From contig DLMJ01000042.1 in NCBI GenBank assembly GCA_002479255.1, forward strand, positions 16,942 to 80,941: a stretch of DNA of 64,000 nt, given 5' to 3'. This document shows, piece by piece, positions 780 to 62,988 of this stretch (its first letter is position 1; the number at the start of each line of letters is the position of its first letter). The position numbers and the translations under genes are program-made. Below the pieces are notes generated by a model. The model was given only the letters and a program-made list of their open reading frames with translations, made no database searches and had not been told where the DNA came from. The DNA comes from Candidatus Binatus soli (lineage in GTDB: Bacteria; Desulfobacterota; Binatia; Binatales; Binataceae).

Positions 780-1457
780 TTATTGATTGGGCACCAGTTC
801 GACGCGGCGGTTCTGAGCGCGGCCCTCAGCAGTGTCGTTGGTGGCTACGAAGTCGGTCTTGCCGTACCCGTGCGGAATCAACTGACTCGACGGGATTCCG
901 GCTTTCACGAGGTAATCCACCACGGCGTCTGAACGTCGATCAGACAACTTCAAGTTGTATTCCTCGCTGCCGATCGCGTCGCAGTAGCCGTTGACGTTGA
1001 TCGTGACGTTCGGATTGGCCTTAAGTGTTGATGCGGCTTCATCCAGAACGGCGGCATCACCCGGGCGAATCTTCGACTTGTTGAAGTCGAAATGCACACC
1101 GCGTAACACCAGCTTCTGCCTGATCGGCGGCGGTGGTGGCGGTGGCGGAGGAGGAGGCGGCGGTGGAGGCGGTGGCGGAGGAGGCGGTGGCACCCGTTTC
1201 GGCGCCAGCAGGTAGCCGATCGTGCCGCCGATCAGAGCGCCCCCCACAACGCCCGTGGGGCATCCGATCTCATAACCCTTTGCGGAACCACTTACCCCGG
1301 CAGCAACTCCACACCCTATCCCTCCGCCGACGAGCGCCCCGCCGGCCGCTCCGTACGCGGTGTACTCTTTCTGCTCAGGCGTCCACGACGCGCACGACGA
1401 GACCGTCAAAAGAGCGACAGACGCCGCTACGGTAATCCAACTTTTCCATCTAAACAT
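780..1457 (-). CDS. OmpA-family lipoprotein, paralogue 1: lipobox LLTVSSC, Gly-zipper N-domain, ~24-Pro linker, OmpA C-terminal peptidoglycan-binding domain
   Basis: C-terminal NRRVE OmpA/MotB signature. Start chosen at ATG 1457 (MFRWKSW), which has GGGAGGG 6 nt upstream; the track start 1505 lacks an SD. Confidence 0.85.
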   Translation of the reverse strand: MFRWKSWITVAASVALLTVSSCASWTPEQKEYTAYGAAGGALVGGGIGCGVAAGVSGSAKGYEIGCPTGVVGGALIGGTIGYLLAPKRVPPPPPPPPPPPPPPPPPPPPPPIRQKLVLRGVHFDFNKSKIRPGDAAVLDEAASTLKANPNVTINVNGYCDAIGSEEYNLKLSDRRSDAVVDYLVKAGIPSSQLIPHGYGKTDFVATNDTAEGRAQNRRVELVPNQ

Positions 1458-1580
1458 GAGCATCCCTCCCTGGGTTCCAAGTAATTCCAGAATTAAACAC
1501 CGCAAATCCTGCCATTTTTGGGAAACGAAGTCTATTGAAGAGGCGAATCTTTCGCGCTCCGAGACTCGTAATGATGAGGA

Positions 1581-1686: not shown

Positions 1687-2367
1687 TTATTGATTGGGCA
1701 CCAGTTCGACGCGACGGTTCTGAGCGCGGCCCTTAGCCGTGTCGTTGGTGGCGACGAAGTCGGTCTTGCCGTACCCGTGCGGAATTAACTGGCTCGACGG
1801 GATTCCGGCTTTCACGAGGTAATCCACCACGGCGTCTGAACGGCGGTCGGACAGCTTCAAGTTGTATTCCTCGCCCCCGATCGCATCGCAGTATCCGTTG
1901 ACGTTGATCGTCACGTTCCGATTGGCCTTAAGCGTTGATGCGGCTTCATCCAGAACGGCGGCATCACCCGGGCGGATCTTCGACTTGTTGAAGTCGAAAT
2001 GCGCACCGCGGATCACCAGCTTCTCCTTGACCGGAGGCGGTGGTGGCGGTGGCGGAGGAGGCGGCGGCGGTGGTGGAGGTGGCGGCGGTGGTGGAGGAGG
2101 CACCGGCTTCGGCGACAGCAAGTAGCCGTTCACGCCGCCGATCAGAGCGCCCATCACAACCCCCGTGATGCATCCGATCTTATAACTCTCTAAGGAACCA
2201 CTCGTTCCCGCCGCAATTCCGCACCCCAGCCCTCCGCCGACGAGCGCGCCGCCGGTCGCTCCGACTGCGGTGTACTCTCTCTGTTCGGGCGTCCACGACG
2301 CGCACGACGAGACCGTCAAAAGAGCGACAGACGCTGCCGCGCCAATCCAATTTTTCCATCTGATCAT
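1687..2367 (-). CDS. OmpA-family lipoprotein, paralogue 2 (Gly-zipper N-domain, ~25-Pro linker, OmpA C domain)
   Basis: Near-identical C-terminal domain to copy 1. Start at ATG 2367 (MIRWKNW) with AGGGG 5 nt upstream; the track start 2373 is a GTG. Confidence 0.85.
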   Translation of the reverse strand: MIRWKNWIGAAASVALLTVSSCASWTPEQREYTAVGATGGALVGGGLGCGIAAGTSGSLESYKIGCITGVVMGALIGGVNGYLLSPKPVPPPPPPPPPPPPPPPPPPPPPPPVKEKLVIRGAHFDFNKSKIRPGDAAVLDEAASTLKANRNVTINVNGYCDAIGGEEYNLKLSDRRSDAVVDYLVKAGIPSSQLIPHGYGKTDFVATNDTAKGRAQNRRVELVPNQ

Positions 2368-2490
2368 GGGCACCCCTGCCTGGTTTCAAGTAATTCTGGA
2401 ATTAAACACCGCAAATCCTGCCATTTTTGGGAACCGAGGTCTATTGAAGAGTCGAATCTTTCGCACTCCTGAGATTCGTAATGATGAGGA

Positions 2491-2586: not shown

Positions 2587-3303
2587 TTATTGATTGGGCG
2601 CCAGTTCGACGCGGCGGTTCTGAGCGCGGCCCTCAGCAGTGTCGTTGGTGGCTACGAAGTCGGTCTTGCCGTACCCGTGCGGAATCAACTGACTCGACGG
2701 GATTCCGGCTTTCACGAGGTAATCCACCACGGCGTCTGAACGGCGGTCGGACAGCTTCAAGTTGTATTCCTCGCTGCCGATCGCGTCGCAGTAGCCGTTG
2801 ACGTTGATCGTGACGTTCGGATTGGCCTTAAGCGTTGATGCGGCTTCATCCAGAACGGCGGCATCACCCGGGCGAATTTTCGACTTGTTGAAGTCGAAAT
2901 GCACACCGCGTAGCACCAGCTTCTCCTTGACCGGAGGCGGTGGTGGCGGTGGCGGAGGAGGCGGCGGGGGTGGAGGCGGCGGCGGTGGAGGAGGTGGCGG
3001 CGGAATTAGCGGATCGCAGATGTAGTGGCCTGCCAACGCGCCGAGTCCCGCGCCTATGACTGCTCCACCCACACCGGCATAAGCCCTGGCGTCTTTGTCG
3101 CTCTGGTGACGTCCCGCGACATTGTCAGCGATGACGATTCCTGAGGCTGCACCTACCCCTGCGCCAAGCAGTCCTCCGACGACCGCGCAGGTTCCCCACG
3201 AGCGTGGCTTCTGCAAATTTGCGCAACCGCCCAAACTGGAGGCGATTAGCGCCGCACCCGCGACACCGGCGACCGCATTTAAAAACCTTGATTTCAGTCT
3301 CAT
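2587..3303 (-). CDS. OmpA-family lipoprotein, paralogue 3 (different N-terminal domain with lipobox LGGC, ~26-Pro linker, same OmpA C domain)
   Basis: Start at ATG 3303 (MRLKSRF) with GAGGAGGAG 3-5 nt upstream; C-terminal domain about 95% identical to copies 1 and 2. Confidence 0.8.
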   Translation of the reverse strand: MRLKSRFLNAVAGVAGAALIASSLGGCANLQKPRSWGTCAVVGGLLGAGVGAASGIVIADNVAGRHQSDKDARAYAGVGGAVIGAGLGALAGHYICDPLIPPPPPPPPPPPPPPPPPPPPPPPPVKEKLVLRGVHFDFNKSKIRPGDAAVLDEAASTLKANPNVTINVNGYCDAIGSEEYNLKLSDRRSDAVVDYLVKAGIPSSQLIPHGYGKTDFVATNDTAEGRAQNRRVELAPNQ

Positions 3304-3753
3304 GAACTCCTCCTCACCCAAGTGCGTCTATGCGCGAAGCGAACCCCCTCACTTGCCCCTGAGCGTCAATCGTGCCAAACGGGAACTATCCCACCCAATT
3401 GACGGGAAAATATAGTTATATTTGTAACAAGAATGCAACATCTCCGGGGGGTGAAAAGGCGAGATTTTTTGCCCGGGCTGGCGAGCGTTCTCTCGGTGCA
3501 GCCCGGGCTTTCTGTGGATAAGTGGTGGTGAAATTGCCGCGATTTCCCGGTCAAGCTCGGCTCATATAACGCGTAACGCTCTGAATGCCCGCAAAGACGC
3601 TGTTCGGAGCGGTCGTTTGAGTCGAATTAATACTGGTTTGTGTCGCCCTTATGGTGGCCATGCTTCTGCGCATTGGTCTGTTGCCTGAAACCCGTCTGAC
3701 TTGAAGGCGAATTCCGCGCGAAGCGGAAACCCTGCTAGACTGTTTCGCTCATC

Positions 3754-58391: not shown

Positions 58392-58425
58392 TGCTTGAGG
58401 CCGACGTCCGAAGTTTTTTCGACTC

Positions 58426-58465
58426 GGTTGACCATCCGGAGTAATCACTCGTGGTTACTCCGGAT
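58426..58465. terminator. Perfect 15-bp inverted repeat (gaccatccggagtaa / ttactccggatggtc, 10-nt loop) between convergent genes; candidate bidirectional terminator
   Basis: Read directly; lies between the stops at 58391 (+) and 58504 (-). Confidence 0.6.
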
Positions 58466-58503
58466 GGTCGCGCATCGGATTGCCGACCGGAGGATTCTGC
58501 GGC

Positions 58504-59601
58504 TCATCCGCCCGGCGTCGCGGTCGCCGTAGGAGTCGCGCTCAGGGTTGCGGTTGCGGTTGCCGTTCGGGTTGCCGTCGCGGTTGCGGTTGCCGTTGGG
58601 GTTGCAGTCGTAGTTGCCGTCGCGGTCGCGGTAGCGGTTGGGGTTCCCGTTCGGGTTGCCGTCGCGGTAACGGTTACCGTCGCGGTTGCGGTTGTCGTTG
58701 GGGTTGGAGTCGTAGTTTGAGTCGCGGTCGCGGTAGTGGTTGGTGTTGCCGTTCGGGTTGCCGTCGCGGTAGCGGTCGCCGTCGCGGTAGCGGTCGCCGT
58801 CGCGGTAGCGGTTGCAGTCGCGGTAGCGGTTGCCGTTGGGGATGCCGTTGGGGTTGCCGTCACGGTCGGGGTCGGGGTCGCGGTCGGCGCTACGAAGATG
58901 CAGGCGCAGGAGCCTTGTCCGCTACCCAGCCGTGTGATGTCGGCGCACGTTTCCGGCAGTCCGTCATTGAGTTCGTCCGCAGCCGGAACATCGGCTTGGA
59001 ACACGTCTTCGGTGATCTGGGTATTCTGAACGTGAGATGCCCAAGCCATTAGTTCGCTATTGGTGGCCAGTATGAAGCTGGTGCCCGCCGCGGTTGGATC
59101 GCAGCAGACGCCGGTGCTGGGGTCGCAAGCTGCATATGTGGGCTGCGAATCCCCGTATGGAGCTGGAGTGCCATTTGGCAAGGTCGATATGATACGGACC
59201 GAGCCGTCGTGGAGGAGGCCCCCTGTCACCGGGTTCCCCGCCAAACTGCCACTGATGCTGAGGGTCAACAGACCATCCGCGGTCAGCGGGCATCCGCAGC
59301 AGGCCTGCATCGATTGCTCGGTATTGAAGACGTAGATCATCGCGCAGATTTCGCCCTCTCGCGAGGCGGGGGTGGCGCCCGTTGCATCTCCCTCGAGGGG
59401 AGCCGTGATATTGACGGAGGCCTGTCCCCCCTTGGTGTTGGCGTTGCTGAAATAATTCTGCAACTCAGTCCCGTACTCTTCGGACTCTGCCGCCGCCCTG
59501 CCTGACAACGCGAACGTCGCGAGGGCCACGGCCAGCAGAATCATCGTGCTTGTGCTCAGGACTCTCTTACCTAAAGGCGCTAAGGCCCATACACCATTCA
59601 T
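58504..59601 (-). CDS. Secreted Cys-rich protein with a ~115-aa C-terminal (Thr-Ala)n / TATP low-complexity tail
   Basis: Signal peptide, then a ~200-aa domain with 10 Cys (ACCGCP, CDPSTGVCCDP, CACIF), then TATATATA...PGG. Start at ATG 59601 (MNGVW) with GGGAG upstream. Confidence 0.7.
   Translation of the reverse strand: MNGVWALAPLGKRVLSTSTMILLAVALATFALSGRAAAESEEYGTELQNYFSNANTKGGQASVNITAPLEGDATGATPASREGEICAMIYVFNTEQSMQACCGCPLTADGLLTLSISGSLAGNPVTGGLLHDGSVRIISTLPNGTPAPYGDSQPTYAACDPSTGVCCDPTAAGTSFILATNSELMAWASHVQNTQITEDVFQADVPAADELNDGLPETCADITRLGSGQGSCACIFVAPTATPTPTVTATPTASPTATATATATATATATATATATATATATRTATPTTTATATQTTTPTPTTTATATVTVTATATRTGTPTATATATATTTATPTATATATATRTATATATLSATPTATATPGG
58507..58870. 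repeat. Coding hexanucleotide microsatellite (GCSGTM)n, ~360 bp, encoding the (Thr-Ala)n tail on the minus strand
   Basis: gtcgcggtagcggtcgccgtcgcggtagcggt... read directly. Confidence 0.7.
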
Positions 59602-59685: not shown

Positions 59686-59714
59686 AATATCATGAATACC
59701 CTTATTGCTGTCAA
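59686..59714 (-). promoter_or_regulatory. Candidate sigma-70 promoter for the TA-repeat protein gene (TTGACA-N17-GATATT on the minus strand)
   Basis: Read on the minus strand: tttgacagcaataagggtattcatgatattc; about 78 nt upstream of ATG 59601. Confidence 0.35.
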
Positions 59715-59836
59715 ACGGATGCCAAGATGTAGGGGAAAGTGCCGGCTGGTTTAGCAGTCTGGCGCCGAGTTCTTGCCGGGTTCGGACGAGTTCGGATTTG
59801 TCCAAAAGTGTCCGACCGTCGCTGGCGGTGGCCAAA

Positions 59837-59852
59837 TGGCATCTCGCTTGCA
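59837..59852 (+). promoter_or_regulatory. Candidate sigma-54 (-24/-12) promoter TGGCATctcgcTTGCA, oriented toward the Wza-like gene
   Basis: Matches TGGCAC-N5-TTGCW with the exact GG-to-GC spacing; about 355 nt upstream of ATG 60208. Confidence 0.5.
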
Positions 59853-60207
59853 ATCTCCTGATTTCGATGTTACGTTCGCGCCCGAACTGTCAGCGAACGC
59901 GGGGGAGACTGACAAGAGATTCCGCGTTCTCAAGCTTGGTGCCGCTGGTTCGGCGATGAGTTTTGCACCGACCAGAGTGGTAAAACGTAACCAAAGCTAT
60001 GCCTGAGCTGCATGGCTGGGCGGACGCGTGTGCGCCAATCCCCACGGTTCTTGCGGTCCAGTTGGGCCCGAGATAGCGGCGGTCGCGGAGCGCGATCGAA
60101 CTTTGCGATGGCTGGGGAGATGGGCCGAAAGGTCGCTATTTGCCGAGCCCCGTCTCCGAGACTCGGCGCGCCATTCTCGTCCGGTTCGGTATGCGGGAAA
60201 TACGATC

Positions 60208-62988
60208 ATGAAGATGGGCAATCATTCGATCCGGGTCACTAAGCGGACTGCGAGCCTGTTCGGCGCGTTAGCAACGGTTGCGGCGCTTGTCTGGTTCGCA
60301 AGCACACCTGTAGAGGCTCAGTTTTTGCCGACAGCACCAGCGCCGCCCCCGGGGTCATCCTCGACGAGCGACGAACCGGTAATCGCTCCGCCCGACACGG
60401 CCAGTTCGGGAACAGTCGACAGCGGGGCCGCTCCGGGCGCACCTATATCCCTTTCCCCGGCACAGATTGAGCAGGCACGCTCGATGATTGGAAATGGCGC
60501 CGCTTCGCCGGAGGCGATACAGCGTCTGTGCGCGGGAGTGGCGGCCAAGCACTTGACTGCCGACCAGATAGACTCCACCGCCGCGTCCCTGGGACTATCG
60601 GGCGAGCAAATTGCGGAACTCAAAAACTGTGCATCCTCTGCGAGCACGGCGCCGCCGGAGGCGAGTCCGCGCGCGAACTCTTCAAGCTCAAGTCAGACTC
60701 CGGGAGGTCCGGTCGGCACTGCGGCGAGTGCGAACGGCGAGAGTCTGTCATCGATCGAAGGCTCCTTTCGTTCGCTCGCCGCCCCATCGCAACAGGTGCA
60801 CAATCCGACTCCCTCAAATCTGCGCCAGTTCGGCTACGCCTTGTTCAGCGGCCCGGTCTCAACCTTCGCACCGCTCGGTGACGTGCCGGTTGGTGCGGAT
60901 TACGTATTGGGTCCTGGCGACGAGCTCAATTTGCTGATGTGGGGCCGCGTCAACCGCACCTCGCGTCTCAAGGTCGAGCGGGACGGCAGCGTGCTGATTC
61001 CGGAGATCGGGCCGGTGGAAGTGTCCGGCCTGACTTTCGAGCAAGCGAAGAAGCTTATCGAGAGCCGTGCCGGACAGATCACGGGTGTGCAAGTGGACGT
61101 GACGATGGGTTCGATCCGCACCATTCAGGTGTTCGTGATCGGCAAGGTTGAGCATCCGGGGCTTTTCACGGTCAGCGCGCTGTCGCACGTGTCTAACGCG
61201 TTGGTCGCGTCGGGCGGCATCAGCAAGATCGGCACGCTGCGAAGGGTCGAGCTACGACGGGGCAATCAGCTGATCCGCGAGATCGATCTCTATGACATGC
61301 TCCTGCATGGCAAAACGTCGGCTGACGTGCGCCTGGAGCAGGGCGACGTAATCTTCGTGCCGGTAATCGGCAACGTAGTAGGGGTGACCGGGGATGTGAA
61401 AGACCCCGCCATTTACGAGCTGCGCGGCCAGGAAGATTTGGCAGCGGTGCTCCGTATGGCGGGTGGAGTCGGCGCCTTCGGCTATTCGCAACGCCTGCAG
61501 GTTGAGCGCATCAACAACCACGAACATCGGGTTGACATCGACGTGGCATTGTCGAGCCGGCAGTTCAGCAGTTTCGCGGTGCGCGATGGCGATCTGGTCA
61601 AGGTCTACACCGTGCTGCCGGAGCGCAACAACGTCGTGACACTTAAGGGCAACGCACGACGCCCAGGGGTCTACGAGTGGCGGCCTTATATGCGGGTGTC
61701 GGATTTGATCGGCGAAGGCGAGGGCGTCGCCGATCATACCTATTTCGGCTATGCGCTCATCCGTCGGATCGAGGGTCCCGATCGCCGCGTTCACTATCTG
61801 CCGGTCGACCTCAGCGCCGCGCTGCGCAGCCCCGCTTCGGGACAGGTCAACCTCGTCCTTGAGCCGCGCGACGAACTGACGGTTTATGCAGAGACCGACA
61901 TTGGCGATCTCCCCCATGTGAGCATCACCGGCTCCGTCCGCAAGCCCGGCAGCTACGTGCTGAGCTCGGGGATGCGCGTAAGTGATCTGGTTTATGAGGC
62001 TGGGGGTATCAAGGAGAGCGCCTACCTGAACAAGGCCGAACTCGCGCGCGTTAAAGTCGTCGATGGCACTGCGCGGTTCCTGTACCAGGACATTGCGCTC
62101 GGTAGCGCGCTCGATGGCGTAGGGGGCGAGGATCCGGCGCTGGAGACCGGCGATCACCTTTTCGTCGCCGAAGCGTCCAACTGGCACCAACCGTGGACCG
62201 CGGTGGTCGAGGGAGAAGTAATGCGGCCCGGGCCCTACGTGATTCGCGAAGGTGAGCGGCTGAACTCCTTGCTGGAACGTTGCGGCGGGCTGAGAGCTGA
62301 CGCCTATCTTGAGGCCACGGTATTCGTCCGCGAATCGGTTCAGGACTTGGAGCAGAAGGAGCTGGACGACAGCCGCCGCCGGCTCCAGGCAGACGCCGCG
62401 CGGCTCGCGATGATGCCGAAGCAGCAGTCCGCAAATAACAATACGGCGCAGACCCTTGAGGTAGTGCAGCGGGTGCTCACAGAGACCCAGTCGCAGCAAG
62501 CAACCGGGCGCGTGATTCTGCACTTGCAGTCACTGGACCGACTGCCCTCCTCGCAGGACGACATCGTTCTCCAGCAGGGGGACAAAGTCATAGTTCCCAA
62601 GCGTCCCTCGACCGTGGCGATCCTGGGCCAGGTCTTCAATCCAAGTGCGATCGTCTACGAACGGGGCCGCTCGGTGAGCGACTACCTGCAGCGCTCGGGC
62701 GGACCGACGCAGTGGGCCGACACGGACCACATCATGCTGATCCGCGCCAGCGGCGACATCGTCACCGACCAGAGTATACGCCATAGCGGGAAAGCGGCGT
62801 TGTTTCCGTTGCTGCCGGCGATCTCGGGCGGCCTGATGGGCGTCGAGGTCGAACGCGGCGACACGATCTATGTGCCGGAGACCCTGCGGTACGTTGACGA
62901 GATGCAGGAAGCCAAGGACATCACGCAGATCATCGTCAACGCCGCGACCTCGCTCGCGGTGCTTGGAATTCTGGCGACCAATCTTTAA
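60208..62988 (+). CDS. Large polysaccharide export outer-membrane protein (Wza/KpsD family: Poly_export domain plus multiple SLBB beta-grasp repeats), 926 aa
   Basis: Signal peptide; GADYVLGPGDELNLLMWG Poly_export motif; repeated GDVIFVP / GDTIYVP SLBB-type segments. Start at ATG 60208; the track's upstream extension is rejected. Confidence 0.85.
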   Translation: MKMGNHSIRVTKRTASLFGALATVAALVWFASTPVEAQFLPTAPAPPPGSSSTSDEPVIAPPDTASSGTVDSGAAPGAPISLSPAQIEQARSMIGNGAASPEAIQRLCAGVAAKHLTADQIDSTAASLGLSGEQIAELKNCASSASTAPPEASPRANSSSSSQTPGGPVGTAASANGESLSSIEGSFRSLAAPSQQVHNPTPSNLRQFGYALFSGPVSTFAPLGDVPVGADYVLGPGDELNLLMWGRVNRTSRLKVERDGSVLIPEIGPVEVSGLTFEQAKKLIESRAGQITGVQVDVTMGSIRTIQVFVIGKVEHPGLFTVSALSHVSNALVASGGISKIGTLRRVELRRGNQLIREIDLYDMLLHGKTSADVRLEQGDVIFVPVIGNVVGVTGDVKDPAIYELRGQEDLAAVLRMAGGVGAFGYSQRLQVERINNHEHRVDIDVALSSRQFSSFAVRDGDLVKVYTVLPERNNVVTLKGNARRPGVYEWRPYMRVSDLIGEGEGVADHTYFGYALIRRIEGPDRRVHYLPVDLSAALRSPASGQVNLVLEPRDELTVYAETDIGDLPHVSITGSVRKPGSYVLSSGMRVSDLVYEAGGIKESAYLNKAELARVKVVDGTARFLYQDIALGSALDGVGGEDPALETGDHLFVAEASNWHQPWTAVVEGEVMRPGPYVIREGERLNSLLERCGGLRADAYLEATVFVRESVQDLEQKELDDSRRRLQADAARLAMMPKQQSANNNTAQTLEVVQRVLTETQSQQATGRVILHLQSLDRLPSSQDDIVLQQGDKVIVPKRPSTVAILGQVFNPSAIVYERGRSVSDYLQRSGGPTQWADTDHIMLIRASGDIVTDQSIRHSGKAALFPLLPAISGGLMGVEVERGDTIYVPETLRYVDEMQEAKDITQIIVNAATSLAVLGILATNL

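What the first reader, a model, noticed from the sequence alone, without database searches (positions are those of the whole stretch)
58504..59601. Secreted Cys-rich protein ending in a ~115-residue (Thr-Ala)n tail encoded by a hexanucleotide microsatellite
The N-terminal ~200 aa after the signal peptide contain 10 Cys in paired motifs, so the domain is probably disulfide-bonded. The C-terminal third is almost pure TATATA... interspersed with TPT/TRT. It is encoded by about 60 tandem GCSGTM hexamers (58507-58870). Such a repeat is prone to length variation by slipped-strand mispairing. It resembles PT/TA-rich extended linkers that are O-glycosylated or act as cell-surface stalks. Here the linker is terminal, with no anchor domain after it. 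It is transcribed divergently from the polysaccharide export locus.
Basis: seen in the sequence. Interest (0 to 1): 0.6.

Follow-up and report, generated by a model that had tools for sequence, protein, structure and literature searches.

The report
Secreted cysteine-rich protein with Thr-Ala tail
An uncultured Binataceae soil bacterium makes a secreted, disulfide-rich protein of an undescribed family, ending in a floppy 128-residue threonine-alanine tail whose length varies between near-identical strains in steps of six residues.

Summary
Window 58504-59601 (-) is a real 365-aa gene with three parts: a signal peptide (aa 1-38), a 10-Cys domain (aa 39-237) and a 128-aa tail (aa 238-365). The tail is 50% Thr and 30% Ala, with Thr at every second position for 97 residues.

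The domain has no Pfam or NCBIfam model. It defines a large unannotated family (about 1,800 clusters at 50% identity) in Binataceae and Acidobacteriota. A DsbA-like gene lies just downstream in 39 of 78 loci. The predicted fold is a beta-sandwich closest to TM1070/ASRT.

The tail is predicted disordered and has no anchor or sorting signal. Its DNA is a degenerate repeat, not a pure hexamer microsatellite; the only perfect tract is an 18-nt unit x 2.9. Contigs otherwise 99.8-100% identical carry -18 nt and +18 nt alleles, so slippage is real but modest and in frame.

Orthologues have tails of 118 and 67 aa. Paralogues use the same TA/TP repeats as terminal tails or as interdomain linkers. Between orthologues the domain has dN/dS of about 1, against 0.13-0.57 for its neighbours.

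Function is inferred only: a probably glycan-binding module on an extended, possibly O-glycosylated spacer next to a capsule export locus.

The parts
58504..59601 (-). Complete coding sequence, 365 aa plus stop
   Evidence: ORF list and translation. The exact protein is called on 12 contigs. There are 203 homologues, and 1,806 clusters by profile search.
59488..59601 (-). Signal peptide, aa 1-38: basic n-region GKR, hydrophobic core MILLAVALATFAL, then AAA|ESEE. No lipobox Cys and no twin-Arg.
   Evidence: Read from the sequence. Maximum hydropathy 2.26. AF2 models a single helix at 17-35. The N-terminus is conserved in orthologues.
58891..59487 (-). Cys-rich beta-sandwich domain, aa 39-237. 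Motifs: NYFSNA, CAMIYVF, CCGCP, CCDPT, W187-x2-H190, GSGQGxCxC. No Pfam or NCBIfam model.
58507..58890 (-). 128-residue (Thr-X)n tail, X mostly Ala, then Pro/Val/Arg/Thr. Ends ...TLSATPTATATPGG.
   Evidence: Composition and codon counts. TRF. AF2 pLDDT 33-50 with no secondary structure. No hydrophobic segment.
58761..58813 (-). Only perfect tandem tract: 18-nt unit (ACC GCT ACC GCG ACG GCG) x 2.9. One unit is lost here in the -18 nt allele.
   Evidence: Self-match scan. The deletion is placed at about 58760 in L093 and L098, and is the only difference over 9.7 kb and 7.6 kb respectively.
58660..58695 (-). Neighbourhood of the +18 nt allele. The insertion is placed at 58678 and duplicates TTTATA in the protein.
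   Evidence: L094 compared with the window.
58430..58469 (-). 15-bp-stem hairpin between the two convergent genes. Terminator-like, but without a clear U-run.
   Evidence: RNA fold of 58392-58506 (-): -46.6 kcal/mol, z -3.8, 0 of 200 shuffles fold as well.
59686..59714 (-). Sigma-70-like promoter, TTGACA-17-GATATT, about 85 nt upstream of the ATG
   Evidence: Consensus scan, 10 of 12 matches. The block is invariant in three orthologous loci while the sequence further upstream does not align.
60208..62988 (+). Context: divergently transcribed Wza-like polysaccharide export gene (Poly_export + SLBB), followed by SLT and Wzi
   Evidence: Pfam scan. Called genes in L001. The same arrangement occurs in L010 and L013.

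Best explanation
The gene encodes a Sec-exported protein made of two parts.

Part 1 is a roughly 190-residue beta-sandwich. It is stabilised by four family-wide disulfides plus one subfamily-specific pair. It belongs to a large, undescribed family of extracellular modules in Binataceae and Acidobacteriota.

Part 2 is an intrinsically disordered (Thr-Ala/Pro)n tail. The tail is a lineage-typical low-complexity segment. In paralogues the same kind of repeat links this domain to other extracellular domains; in this orthologue group it is terminal.

The tail is made and resized by slippage or unequal recombination of 18-nt (six-codon) units. Near-identical strains therefore differ by +/-6 residues, and orthologues by tens of residues.

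Shown here: the gene, its parts, the family, the DsbA linkage, the fold class, the predicted disorder, the length polymorphism and the fast protein evolution.

Inferred: the beta-sandwich binds a glycan or another extracellular ligand. The Thr-rich tail acts as an extended, hydrophilic, probably O-glycosylated spacer or brush. That spacer would hold or embed the domain in the capsule/EPS layer exported by the adjacent Wza-Wzi locus.
For: Gene reality: homologues, a conserved promoter, and only in-frame indels.

Export and disulfides: signal peptide. Eight Cys are conserved in at least 84 of 88 members. A DsbA-like gene lies directly downstream on the same strand in 39 of 78 loci.

Extracellular module: the domain is fused to Big_2, NHL propeller, Ice_binding-like, Stig1-like and DUF7933 domains.

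Tail: disordered, pLDDT 33-50. Terminal TA tails recur in L010 (67 aa), L013 (118 aa), L011 (161 aa) and L012 (170 aa). The end LS.TPTAT.TPG is shared by the window and L013.

Slippage: -18 nt alleles (L093, L098) and a +18 nt allele (L094) occur in contigs otherwise 99.8-100% identical. Five of 11 differences fall in the 4% of sequence that is the tail.

Synteny: the arrangement with Wza-SLT-Wzi is kept in both orthologues.
Against: No ligand, glycosylation or localisation evidence exists.

The fold match is only moderate. Foldseek found nothing below E 1e-3, and no sequence-level link to ASRT or any solved structure was found.

No anchor ties the tail to the cell, so a stalk role needs a non-covalent attachment that has not been shown.

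Most family members (133 of 207) have no tail at all, so the tail is dispensable for the domain's basic function.

No protein-specific glycosyltransferase was identified within +/-10 kb.

A gene-wide dN/dS of about 1 could also mean relaxed constraint.

The length alleles come from metagenome assemblies, not reads.
Confidence: 0.55

Rival explanations
1. Vestigial linker. The tail is what remains of an interdomain TA linker after the C-terminal domain was lost. It persists neutrally and drifts in length.
For: Paralogues carry the same repeats as true linkers to Ice_binding-like (L015, L020), NHL (L019), Cys-rich (L021, L023) or Stig1-like (P0012) domains. Most family members need no tail. The L010 tail is partly scrambled.
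Against: Terminal tails of 67-170 aa occur in at least five separate genes. The window and L013 share the tail's last residues, so growth is internal. All observed indels are in frame. No domain remnant fits in the 112 nt before the next gene.
Confidence: 0.2
2. Arms-race surface or secreted protein. The domain is a target or weapon in an antagonistic interaction, such as a phage receptor or decoy, an effector or a bacteriocin-like protein. The variable tail adds antigenic or steric variation.
For: dN/dS is 0.90-1.17 for the domain, against 0.13-0.57 for the three neighbouring genes in the same genome pairs. Several paralogues per genome and tandem copies exist. P0001 and P0003 differ in blocks, a mosaic pattern. 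The tail is the most variable site locally.
Against: The domain is 100% identical across all near-identical strains sampled. No toxin, immunity or phage genes lie nearby. The pairwise dN/dS is gene-wide, with no site test. Gene conversion among paralogues could inflate dN.
Confidence: 0.15
3. Antifreeze-glycoprotein-like or water-structuring polymer. The glycosylated Thr-Ala array is itself the functional part, by analogy with fish AFGP (Ala-Ala-Thr)n.
For: Thr sits on a strict period with small Ala spacers. Paralogues fuse the domain to Ice_binding-like PF11999 domains. Some family MAGs carry names suggesting peat or palsa sources. AFGP repeats are disordered, glycosylated Ala/Thr arrays (PMC6628104).
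Against: The period is 2, not 3. Glycosylation is not shown. PF11999 is widespread in proteins with no ice function. Most family members lack tails.
Confidence: 0.04
4. Artefact or wrong strand. The repeat is an assembly error, or the plus-strand (Val-Ala)n ORFs are the real products.
For: All six frames are open across the GC-rich repeat. Frameshifted database versions of such repeats exist: P0020, P0092, L022.
Against: Identical repeat DNA occurs in at least 10 independent assemblies. Orthologues and paralogues on contigs of 0.3-3.7 Mb carry similar tails. The tail is in frame with a domain that has about 1,800 homologue clusters. The promoter is conserved on the minus strand.
Confidence: 0.02

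Closest known systems
Staphylococcal Ser-Asp dipeptide-repeat (SDR) proteins (ClfA, SdrC-G)
   Same: An N-terminal ligand-binding domain is followed by a long dipeptide repeat carrying a hydroxy-amino acid at every second position. The SDR region holds 25-275 repeats, is proposed to span the cell wall, and is heavily O-glycosylated, which protects it from proteases (PMC3794999). From my own knowledge, not checked here: the SD repeat is also built from 18-nt DNA units and varies in length between strains.
   Different: The dipeptide is Thr-Ala, not Ser-Asp. The organism is a diderm Binataceae, not a Firmicute. No LPXTG or any other anchor follows the repeat. No SdgA/B-like transferase gene lies next to it. 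The N-domain is unrelated.
Pro/Thr-rich (PT-box) interdomain linkers of secreted bacterial glycoside hydrolases
   Same: Extended, low-complexity Thr/Pro/Ala segments in secreted proteins, often O-glycosylated (my knowledge). Paralogues here use (TP)n and (TA)n as linkers in just this way.
   Different: In this gene the segment is C-terminal and links nothing. It is Ala-rich rather than Pro-rich and very long, at 128 aa.
ASRT / TM1070 beta-sandwich superfamily (predicted sugar-binding; PMC2739507)
   Different: No sequence-level relation was found. The domain here is about 190 aa, against about 110. It carries 8-10 Cys and extra loops.
Simple-sequence contingency loci (in-frame repeat variation in surface proteins)
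   Same: A coding repeat changes copy number between otherwise identical strains.
   Different: The array is degenerate. Only +/-1 unit of 18 nt was seen, always in frame, so there is no on/off switching.
Fish antifreeze glycoproteins (Ala-Ala-Thr)n
   Same: A disordered Ala/Thr array with regularly spaced Thr (PMC6628104).
   Different: The unit is a dipeptide, not a tripeptide. The protein is bacterial. No glycan has been shown. The array is appended to a folded domain.

Membership tests
Unnamed Cys-rich secreted domain family (Binataceae/Acidobacteriota; no Pfam model) | Eight conserved Cys plus the motifs NYFSNA, CAMIYVF, CCGCP, W-x2-H and GSGxGxCxC, preceded by a signal peptide or another extracellular domain | tested here: met
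   All of these are present in the window protein. Alignments A1 and A2 and the Cys counts support this. The profile finds 1,806 clusters.
Unnamed Cys-rich secreted domain family | Adjacent DsbA-like oxidoreductase gene | tested here: not met
   It is present in 39 of 78 family loci. It is absent within +/-10 kb of this gene. This is a frequent but not universal feature.
ASRT/TM1070 superfamily | Beta-sandwich fold superposable on 1nc7 and 2ii7 | tested here: met
ASRT/TM1070 superfamily | Sequence-profile membership | tested here: not met
   There is no Pfam or NCBIfam hit. A profile search against PDB sequences found nothing.
ASRT/TM1070 superfamily | Binds sugars or other small molecules | not testable with these tools
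   This is only a prediction for the superfamily itself (PMC2739507).
SD-repeat-type stalk proteins | Long dipeptide repeat with a hydroxy-amino acid at alternate positions, C-terminal to a folded domain | tested here: met
   There are 49 alternate Thr over 97 residues, after the domain. The dipeptide differs, though: TA rather than SD.
SD-repeat-type stalk proteins | Repeat followed by a cell-wall or membrane anchor (LPXTG) | tested here: not met
   The protein ends ...TATATPGG. Maximum hydropathy in the tail is 0.62.
SD-repeat-type stalk proteins | Repeat O-glycosylated by dedicated transferases | not testable with these tools
   No dedicated transferase lies next to the gene. The modification itself needs glycoproteomics.
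Interdomain PT/TA linkers | Low-complexity segment joining two folded domains | tested here: not met
   The segment is terminal here. The stop is at 58504, and the next gene is convergent, 112 nt away. The feature is met in paralogues L015, L019-L021, L023 and P0012.
C-terminal sorting signals (PEP-CTERM, GlyGly-CTERM, LPXTG, T9SS CTD) | Motif plus hydrophobic helix plus basic cluster, or a folded CTD, at the C-terminus | tested here: not met
   There is no hydrophobic stretch or basic cluster in the last 128 residues. No Pfam or NCBIfam domain was found.
Simple-sequence contingency locus | Repeat copy number differs between closely related strains | tested here: met
   -18 nt alleles (L093, L098) and a +18 nt allele (L094) sit in contigs otherwise 99.8-100% identical. 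This is assembly-level evidence only.
Simple-sequence contingency locus | Variation switches the reading frame or expression on and off | tested here: not met
   All indels are multiples of 18 nt and in frame.
Fish-type AFGP | Ala-Ala-Thr tripeptide period with a glycan on each Thr | tested here: not met
   The period is 2. The glycan is not testable.

The most novel reading that the evidence does not exclude
The domain is a new class of extracellular glycan-binding module with its own DsbA partner. The terminal (Thr-Ala)n array is a densely O-glycosylated, mucin- or AFGP-like polymer that is functional in itself, for example by integrating into or organising the capsule/EPS, or by structuring water or ice in cold peat soils. 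Its length would be tuned in the population by 18-nt slippage, as an in-frame contingency mechanism.
Probability: 0.1. Interest if true: 0.75.

Novelty: new variant of a known kind. Interest (0 to 1): 0.42.

Why it matters
The finding points to a large protein family with no annotation: about 1,800 clusters at 50% identity, with several copies per genome. It occurs in two abundant and mostly uncultured soil and peat lineages, Acidobacteriota and Binataceae. The family has a dedicated disulfide-forming partner gene and evolves fast.

One cultured organism carries a copy, Paracidobacterium acidisoli 4G-K13 (L044), so the family can be studied experimentally.

The Thr-Ala tail is a clean natural case of a templated dipeptide-repeat tail. 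It shows measurable in-frame length polymorphism within one population. That makes it useful for studying how low-complexity linkers arise, expand and are co-opted, and as a candidate substrate for an unknown O-glycosylation system in these phyla.

If the tail is only a spacer, the result is ordinary biology in an unfamiliar lineage.

Tried and rejected
- Pfam and NCBIfam scans of the whole protein found no real hit. ThsA_Macro at E 0.084 is noise.
- A profile search against PDB sequences found nothing.
- Foldseek against PDB found nothing below E 1e-3.
- The afdb50 fold library was not available.
- An exact-sequence cluster look-up reported the protein as not in that collection, although the contig index holds it. 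It gave no information on cluster members.
- The window has no second copy of the domain (tblastn).
- An Rfam scan of the gene and its flanks found only a sub-threshold spurious miRNA hit on the hairpin.
- A literature search for Thr-Ala or Ala-Thr repeats found no bacterial case. It returned only AFGP, eukaryotic CAT tails and viral proteins. CAT tails are non-templated and unrelated.
- The apparent 346-aa 'alleles' are a different start-codon call, not length variants.
- Plus-strand Val-Ala ORFs were rejected as shadows of the repeat.
- I could not read model coordinates, so disulfide pairing and the location of conserved residues on the fold were not determined.

Full report
**1. What is in the sequence**

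Window 58504-59601 on the minus strand is an open reading frame of 365 codons plus stop. The ATG at 59601 gives an N-terminus, MNGVWALAPLGKRVLSTSTMILL..., that is conserved at protein level in orthologues. Some gene callers start at Met20, which yields a 346-aa product. That version lacks the basic n-region and is only a calling difference.

Residues 1-38 look like a Sec signal peptide. They have a GKR n-region, a hydrophobic core with maximum hydropathy 2.26, and AAA|ESEE at the likely cleavage site. There is no lipobox Cys.

Residues 39-237 contain 10 Cys.

Residues 238-365 (window 58507-58890) form the tail. It has 128 residues: 64 Thr, 39 Ala, 12 Pro and a few Val/Arg/Gly/Ser. Thr occupies 49 consecutive alternate positions over 97 residues.

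**2. The repeat DNA**

Tandem Repeats Finder reports period 6 with 52 copies, but only 68% matches. It also reports higher-order periods of 42 and 102 nt. The longest perfect hexamer run is three copies.

The only sizeable perfect tract is an 18-nt unit (ACC GCT ACC GCG ACG GCG) x 2.9 at 58761-58813. Thr is encoded by four codons and Ala by three. GCC is absent from the tail, although it is the commonest Ala codon in the N-domain.

So the array is an old, degenerate repeat kept at the amino-acid level. It contains one young 18-nt sub-array and is not a pure hexanucleotide microsatellite.

**3. The gene is real and on the minus strand**

A search with the N-domain found 203 homologues. A profile of 66 members found 1,806 cluster representatives at E <= 1e-3, of which 1,459 are at E <= 1e-10, among 1.84 billion representatives.

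A sigma-70-like promoter, TTGACA-17-GATATT, lies at 59714-59686. This block and the 5' leader are invariant in three orthologous loci, while the sequence further upstream does not align.

A 15-bp-stem hairpin follows the stop codon, between this gene and the convergent TPP-enzyme gene (z -3.8). The plus-strand Val-Ala ORFs are shadows of a repeat that is open in all frames.

**4. Not an assembly artefact, and the organism**

The exact protein is called on 12 contigs from different metagenomes. In six of them the gene DNA is identical to the window. Further contigs found through the neighbouring gene also carry it.

The closest genome is a Candidatus Binataceae MAG (L013). Its neighbouring genes are 96% (TPP enzyme), 85% (Wza) and 90% (SLT) identical in protein to those of the window. 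The window therefore comes from an uncultured Binataceae bacterium.

**5. Length polymorphism**

I fetched contigs that encode the identical 568-aa TPP enzyme next door and compared about 7.6-9.7 kb with the window.

| Locus | Differences from the window |
|---|---|
| L091, L092, L096 | none |
| L093, L098 | one 18-nt deletion at the perfect 18-nt tract (about 58760); nothing else |
| L094 | one 18-nt insertion at 58678 (duplicating TTTATA) plus three SNPs elsewhere |
| L095 | three SNPs, one in the tail (58646) |
| L097 | two SNPs, one in the tail (58737) |

Of the 11 differences in total, five fall in the tail: all three indels and two SNPs. The tail makes up about 4% of the compared sequence. 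The N-domain is invariant in all these contigs.

The tail is thus the local hot spot. It changes in frame by six-codon units, as slipped-strand mispairing would predict. The variation is modest, at +/-1 unit. This is assembly-level evidence; reads were not available.

**6. Orthologues and paralogues**

Two syntenic orthologues have the same divergent arrangement with Wza-SLT-Wzi. Their tails are 118 aa (L013) and 67 aa (L010 = P0001).

The window and L013 share the extreme C-terminus: TLSATPTATATPGG against TLSPTPTATPTPG. This indicates that expansion happens inside the tail.

Paralogues in Binataceae MAGs show two uses of the same repeats:
- Terminal tails of 161 aa (L011) and 170 aa (L012, about 75 uninterrupted Thr-Ala).
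- (TA)n or (TP)n linkers of up to several hundred residues, leading to Ice_binding-like PF11999 (L015, L020), an NHL propeller (L019), Cys-rich domains (L021, L023) or a Stig1-like domain (P0012).

Among 207 family members with a recognisable domain end, 133 stop within 10 residues of it. About a tenth carry T/P/A/S-rich extensions. The tail is therefore a lineage-typical, optional add-on. In the Binataceae loci fetched it is found mostly on this family.

**7. The N-domain**

It has no Pfam or NCBIfam model and no sequence relative in the PDB.

The family occurs in Binataceae and widely in Acidobacteriota (Terriglobia). This includes the cultured Paracidobacterium acidisoli 4G-K13. Several paralogues occur per genome, sometimes as tandem copies.

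Eight Cys are conserved in at least 84 of 88 aligned members. An extra pair is present in 42 of 88. F51, G133, W187 and H190 are invariant in alignment A1. In the larger alignment A2 the invariant columns are C101, C102, C104, G133, W187 and H190.

I clustered neighbouring ORFs over 78 genome loci. This showed two recurrent neighbours (also seen):
- A DsbA-like oxidoreductase (SurA_N + Thioredoxin_4/DSBA) directly downstream on the same strand in 39 loci.
- A LuxR/GerE regulator upstream in 28 loci.

The window locus itself has no DsbA within 10 kb.

Partner domains are Big_2 arrays, DUF7933, NHL, Ice_binding-like and Stig1-like. All are extracellular types.

**8. Structure**

AlphaFold2 with a 66-sequence alignment gives pLDDT 82.7 and pTM 0.76, and a mostly beta fold.

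With the full-length protein, the domain stays above pLDDT 90. The tail has pLDDT 33-50 and no secondary structure.

Foldseek finds nothing below E 1e-3. [quoted passage not shown] The resemblance is at fold level only.

**9. Evolutionary rate**

| Gene | Pairwise dN/dS, window vs L013 / L010 |
|---|---|
| N-domain | 0.90 / 1.17 |
| Wza | 0.37 / 0.57 |
| SLT | 0.24 / 0.20 |
| TPP enzyme | 0.13 (L013 only) |

These values are Nei-Gojobori estimates.

All family-defining residues are retained in the window protein, and the ORF is intact in every copy. I therefore read this as fast, possibly diversifying, evolution of surface loops rather than decay. Relaxed constraint or gene conversion among paralogues cannot be excluded. 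P0001 and P0003 differ in blocks, which would fit gene conversion.

**10. Interpretation**

Shown: this is a secreted, disulfide-rich beta-sandwich of an undescribed family. It carries a disordered, anchorless Thr-Ala tail that expands and contracts by 18-nt units.

Inferred: the domain binds an extracellular ligand, most plausibly a glycan. The tail serves as an extended, hydrophilic, probably O-glycosylated spacer or brush in the capsule/EPS layer produced by the neighbouring Wza-Wzi locus.

The closest functional analogue is the staphylococcal SD-repeat proteins. In these, a dipeptide repeat follows the ligand-binding domain, is thought to span the wall, and is glycosylated for protease protection (PMC3794999). 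The defining anchor of that group is absent here, so this is an analogy and not membership.

Rivals, in order of weight:
1. A vestigial linker left after domain loss.
2. An arms-race surface or secreted protein.
3. An AFGP-like functional polymer.
4. An artefact or wrong strand (effectively excluded).

**11. Verdict**

'Microsatellite' is too strong a word for the repeat, and glycosylation and a stalk function are unproven.

The added value lies in three results: the large unannotated family with its DsbA partner, the direct evidence for in-frame length polymorphism, and the fast evolution of the domain.

Interest is moderate. Low-complexity Thr/Pro/Ala tails and in-frame repeat variation are known kinds of thing, found here in a new lineage, with a new dipeptide and on a new domain.

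Noticed in passing
window 780-1505 (-), 1687-2373 (-), 2587-3321 (-): Three tandem paralogous genes encode small proteins with a lipoprotein-like N-terminus. Each has a 22-26-residue poly-proline linker, encoded by the GGN-rich tandem repeats at 1125-1191, 2032-2101 and 2932-3004. Each ends in an OmpA-C-like peptidoglycan-binding domain, recognised by eye. This is another case of low-complexity linkers in this genome.
   Followed up: no
L025-L088 (Acidobacteriota loci), e.g. L037 2323-11229: A conserved locus holds, in order: a Big_2-repeat protein ending in the Cys-rich domain, a LuxR/GerE regulator, a Gln-rich protein of about 282 aa, one or two tandem 192-aa family members, a DsbA-like gene, and a roughly 1,120-aa protein (unannotated; not scanned against Pfam).
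   Followed up: partly
P0001 vs P0003: Two close homologues have identical tails. Their N-domains differ in blocks (aa ~115-130 and ~145-158). This suggests mosaicism or gene conversion among paralogues.
   Followed up: no
P0020, P0092, L022 6900-7059: Some database proteins read TA/TP repeats out of frame, giving stretches such as NRNRDCN or PRRLPQRRHQQQRRRR. These are likely frameshift errors or real frameshift alleles in such repeats.
   Followed up: no
L007 8883-9578 and 9815-10753: The paralogue P0002 lies on a contig (Ga0427919_0000075) that carries housekeeping proteins identical to the window's. On that contig it sits about 25 kb away from this gene's position. It lies in a second glycan-related locus (GT2, DegT, GT9, polysaccharide deacetylase, methyltransferases) with its own DsbA-like gene.
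   Followed up: partly
window 59836-60006 (+): A 56-aa ORF is called in some assemblies, in the divergent intergenic region between this gene and the Wza-like gene. It has no Pfam hit.
   Followed up: no
L013 9416-11842 (-): In the orthologous Binataceae locus, an 808-aa ORF with a 36-residue TA linker sits beyond the TPP gene. The window has DUF1329 at that position. This may be a locus rearrangement or a further family member.
   Followed up: no
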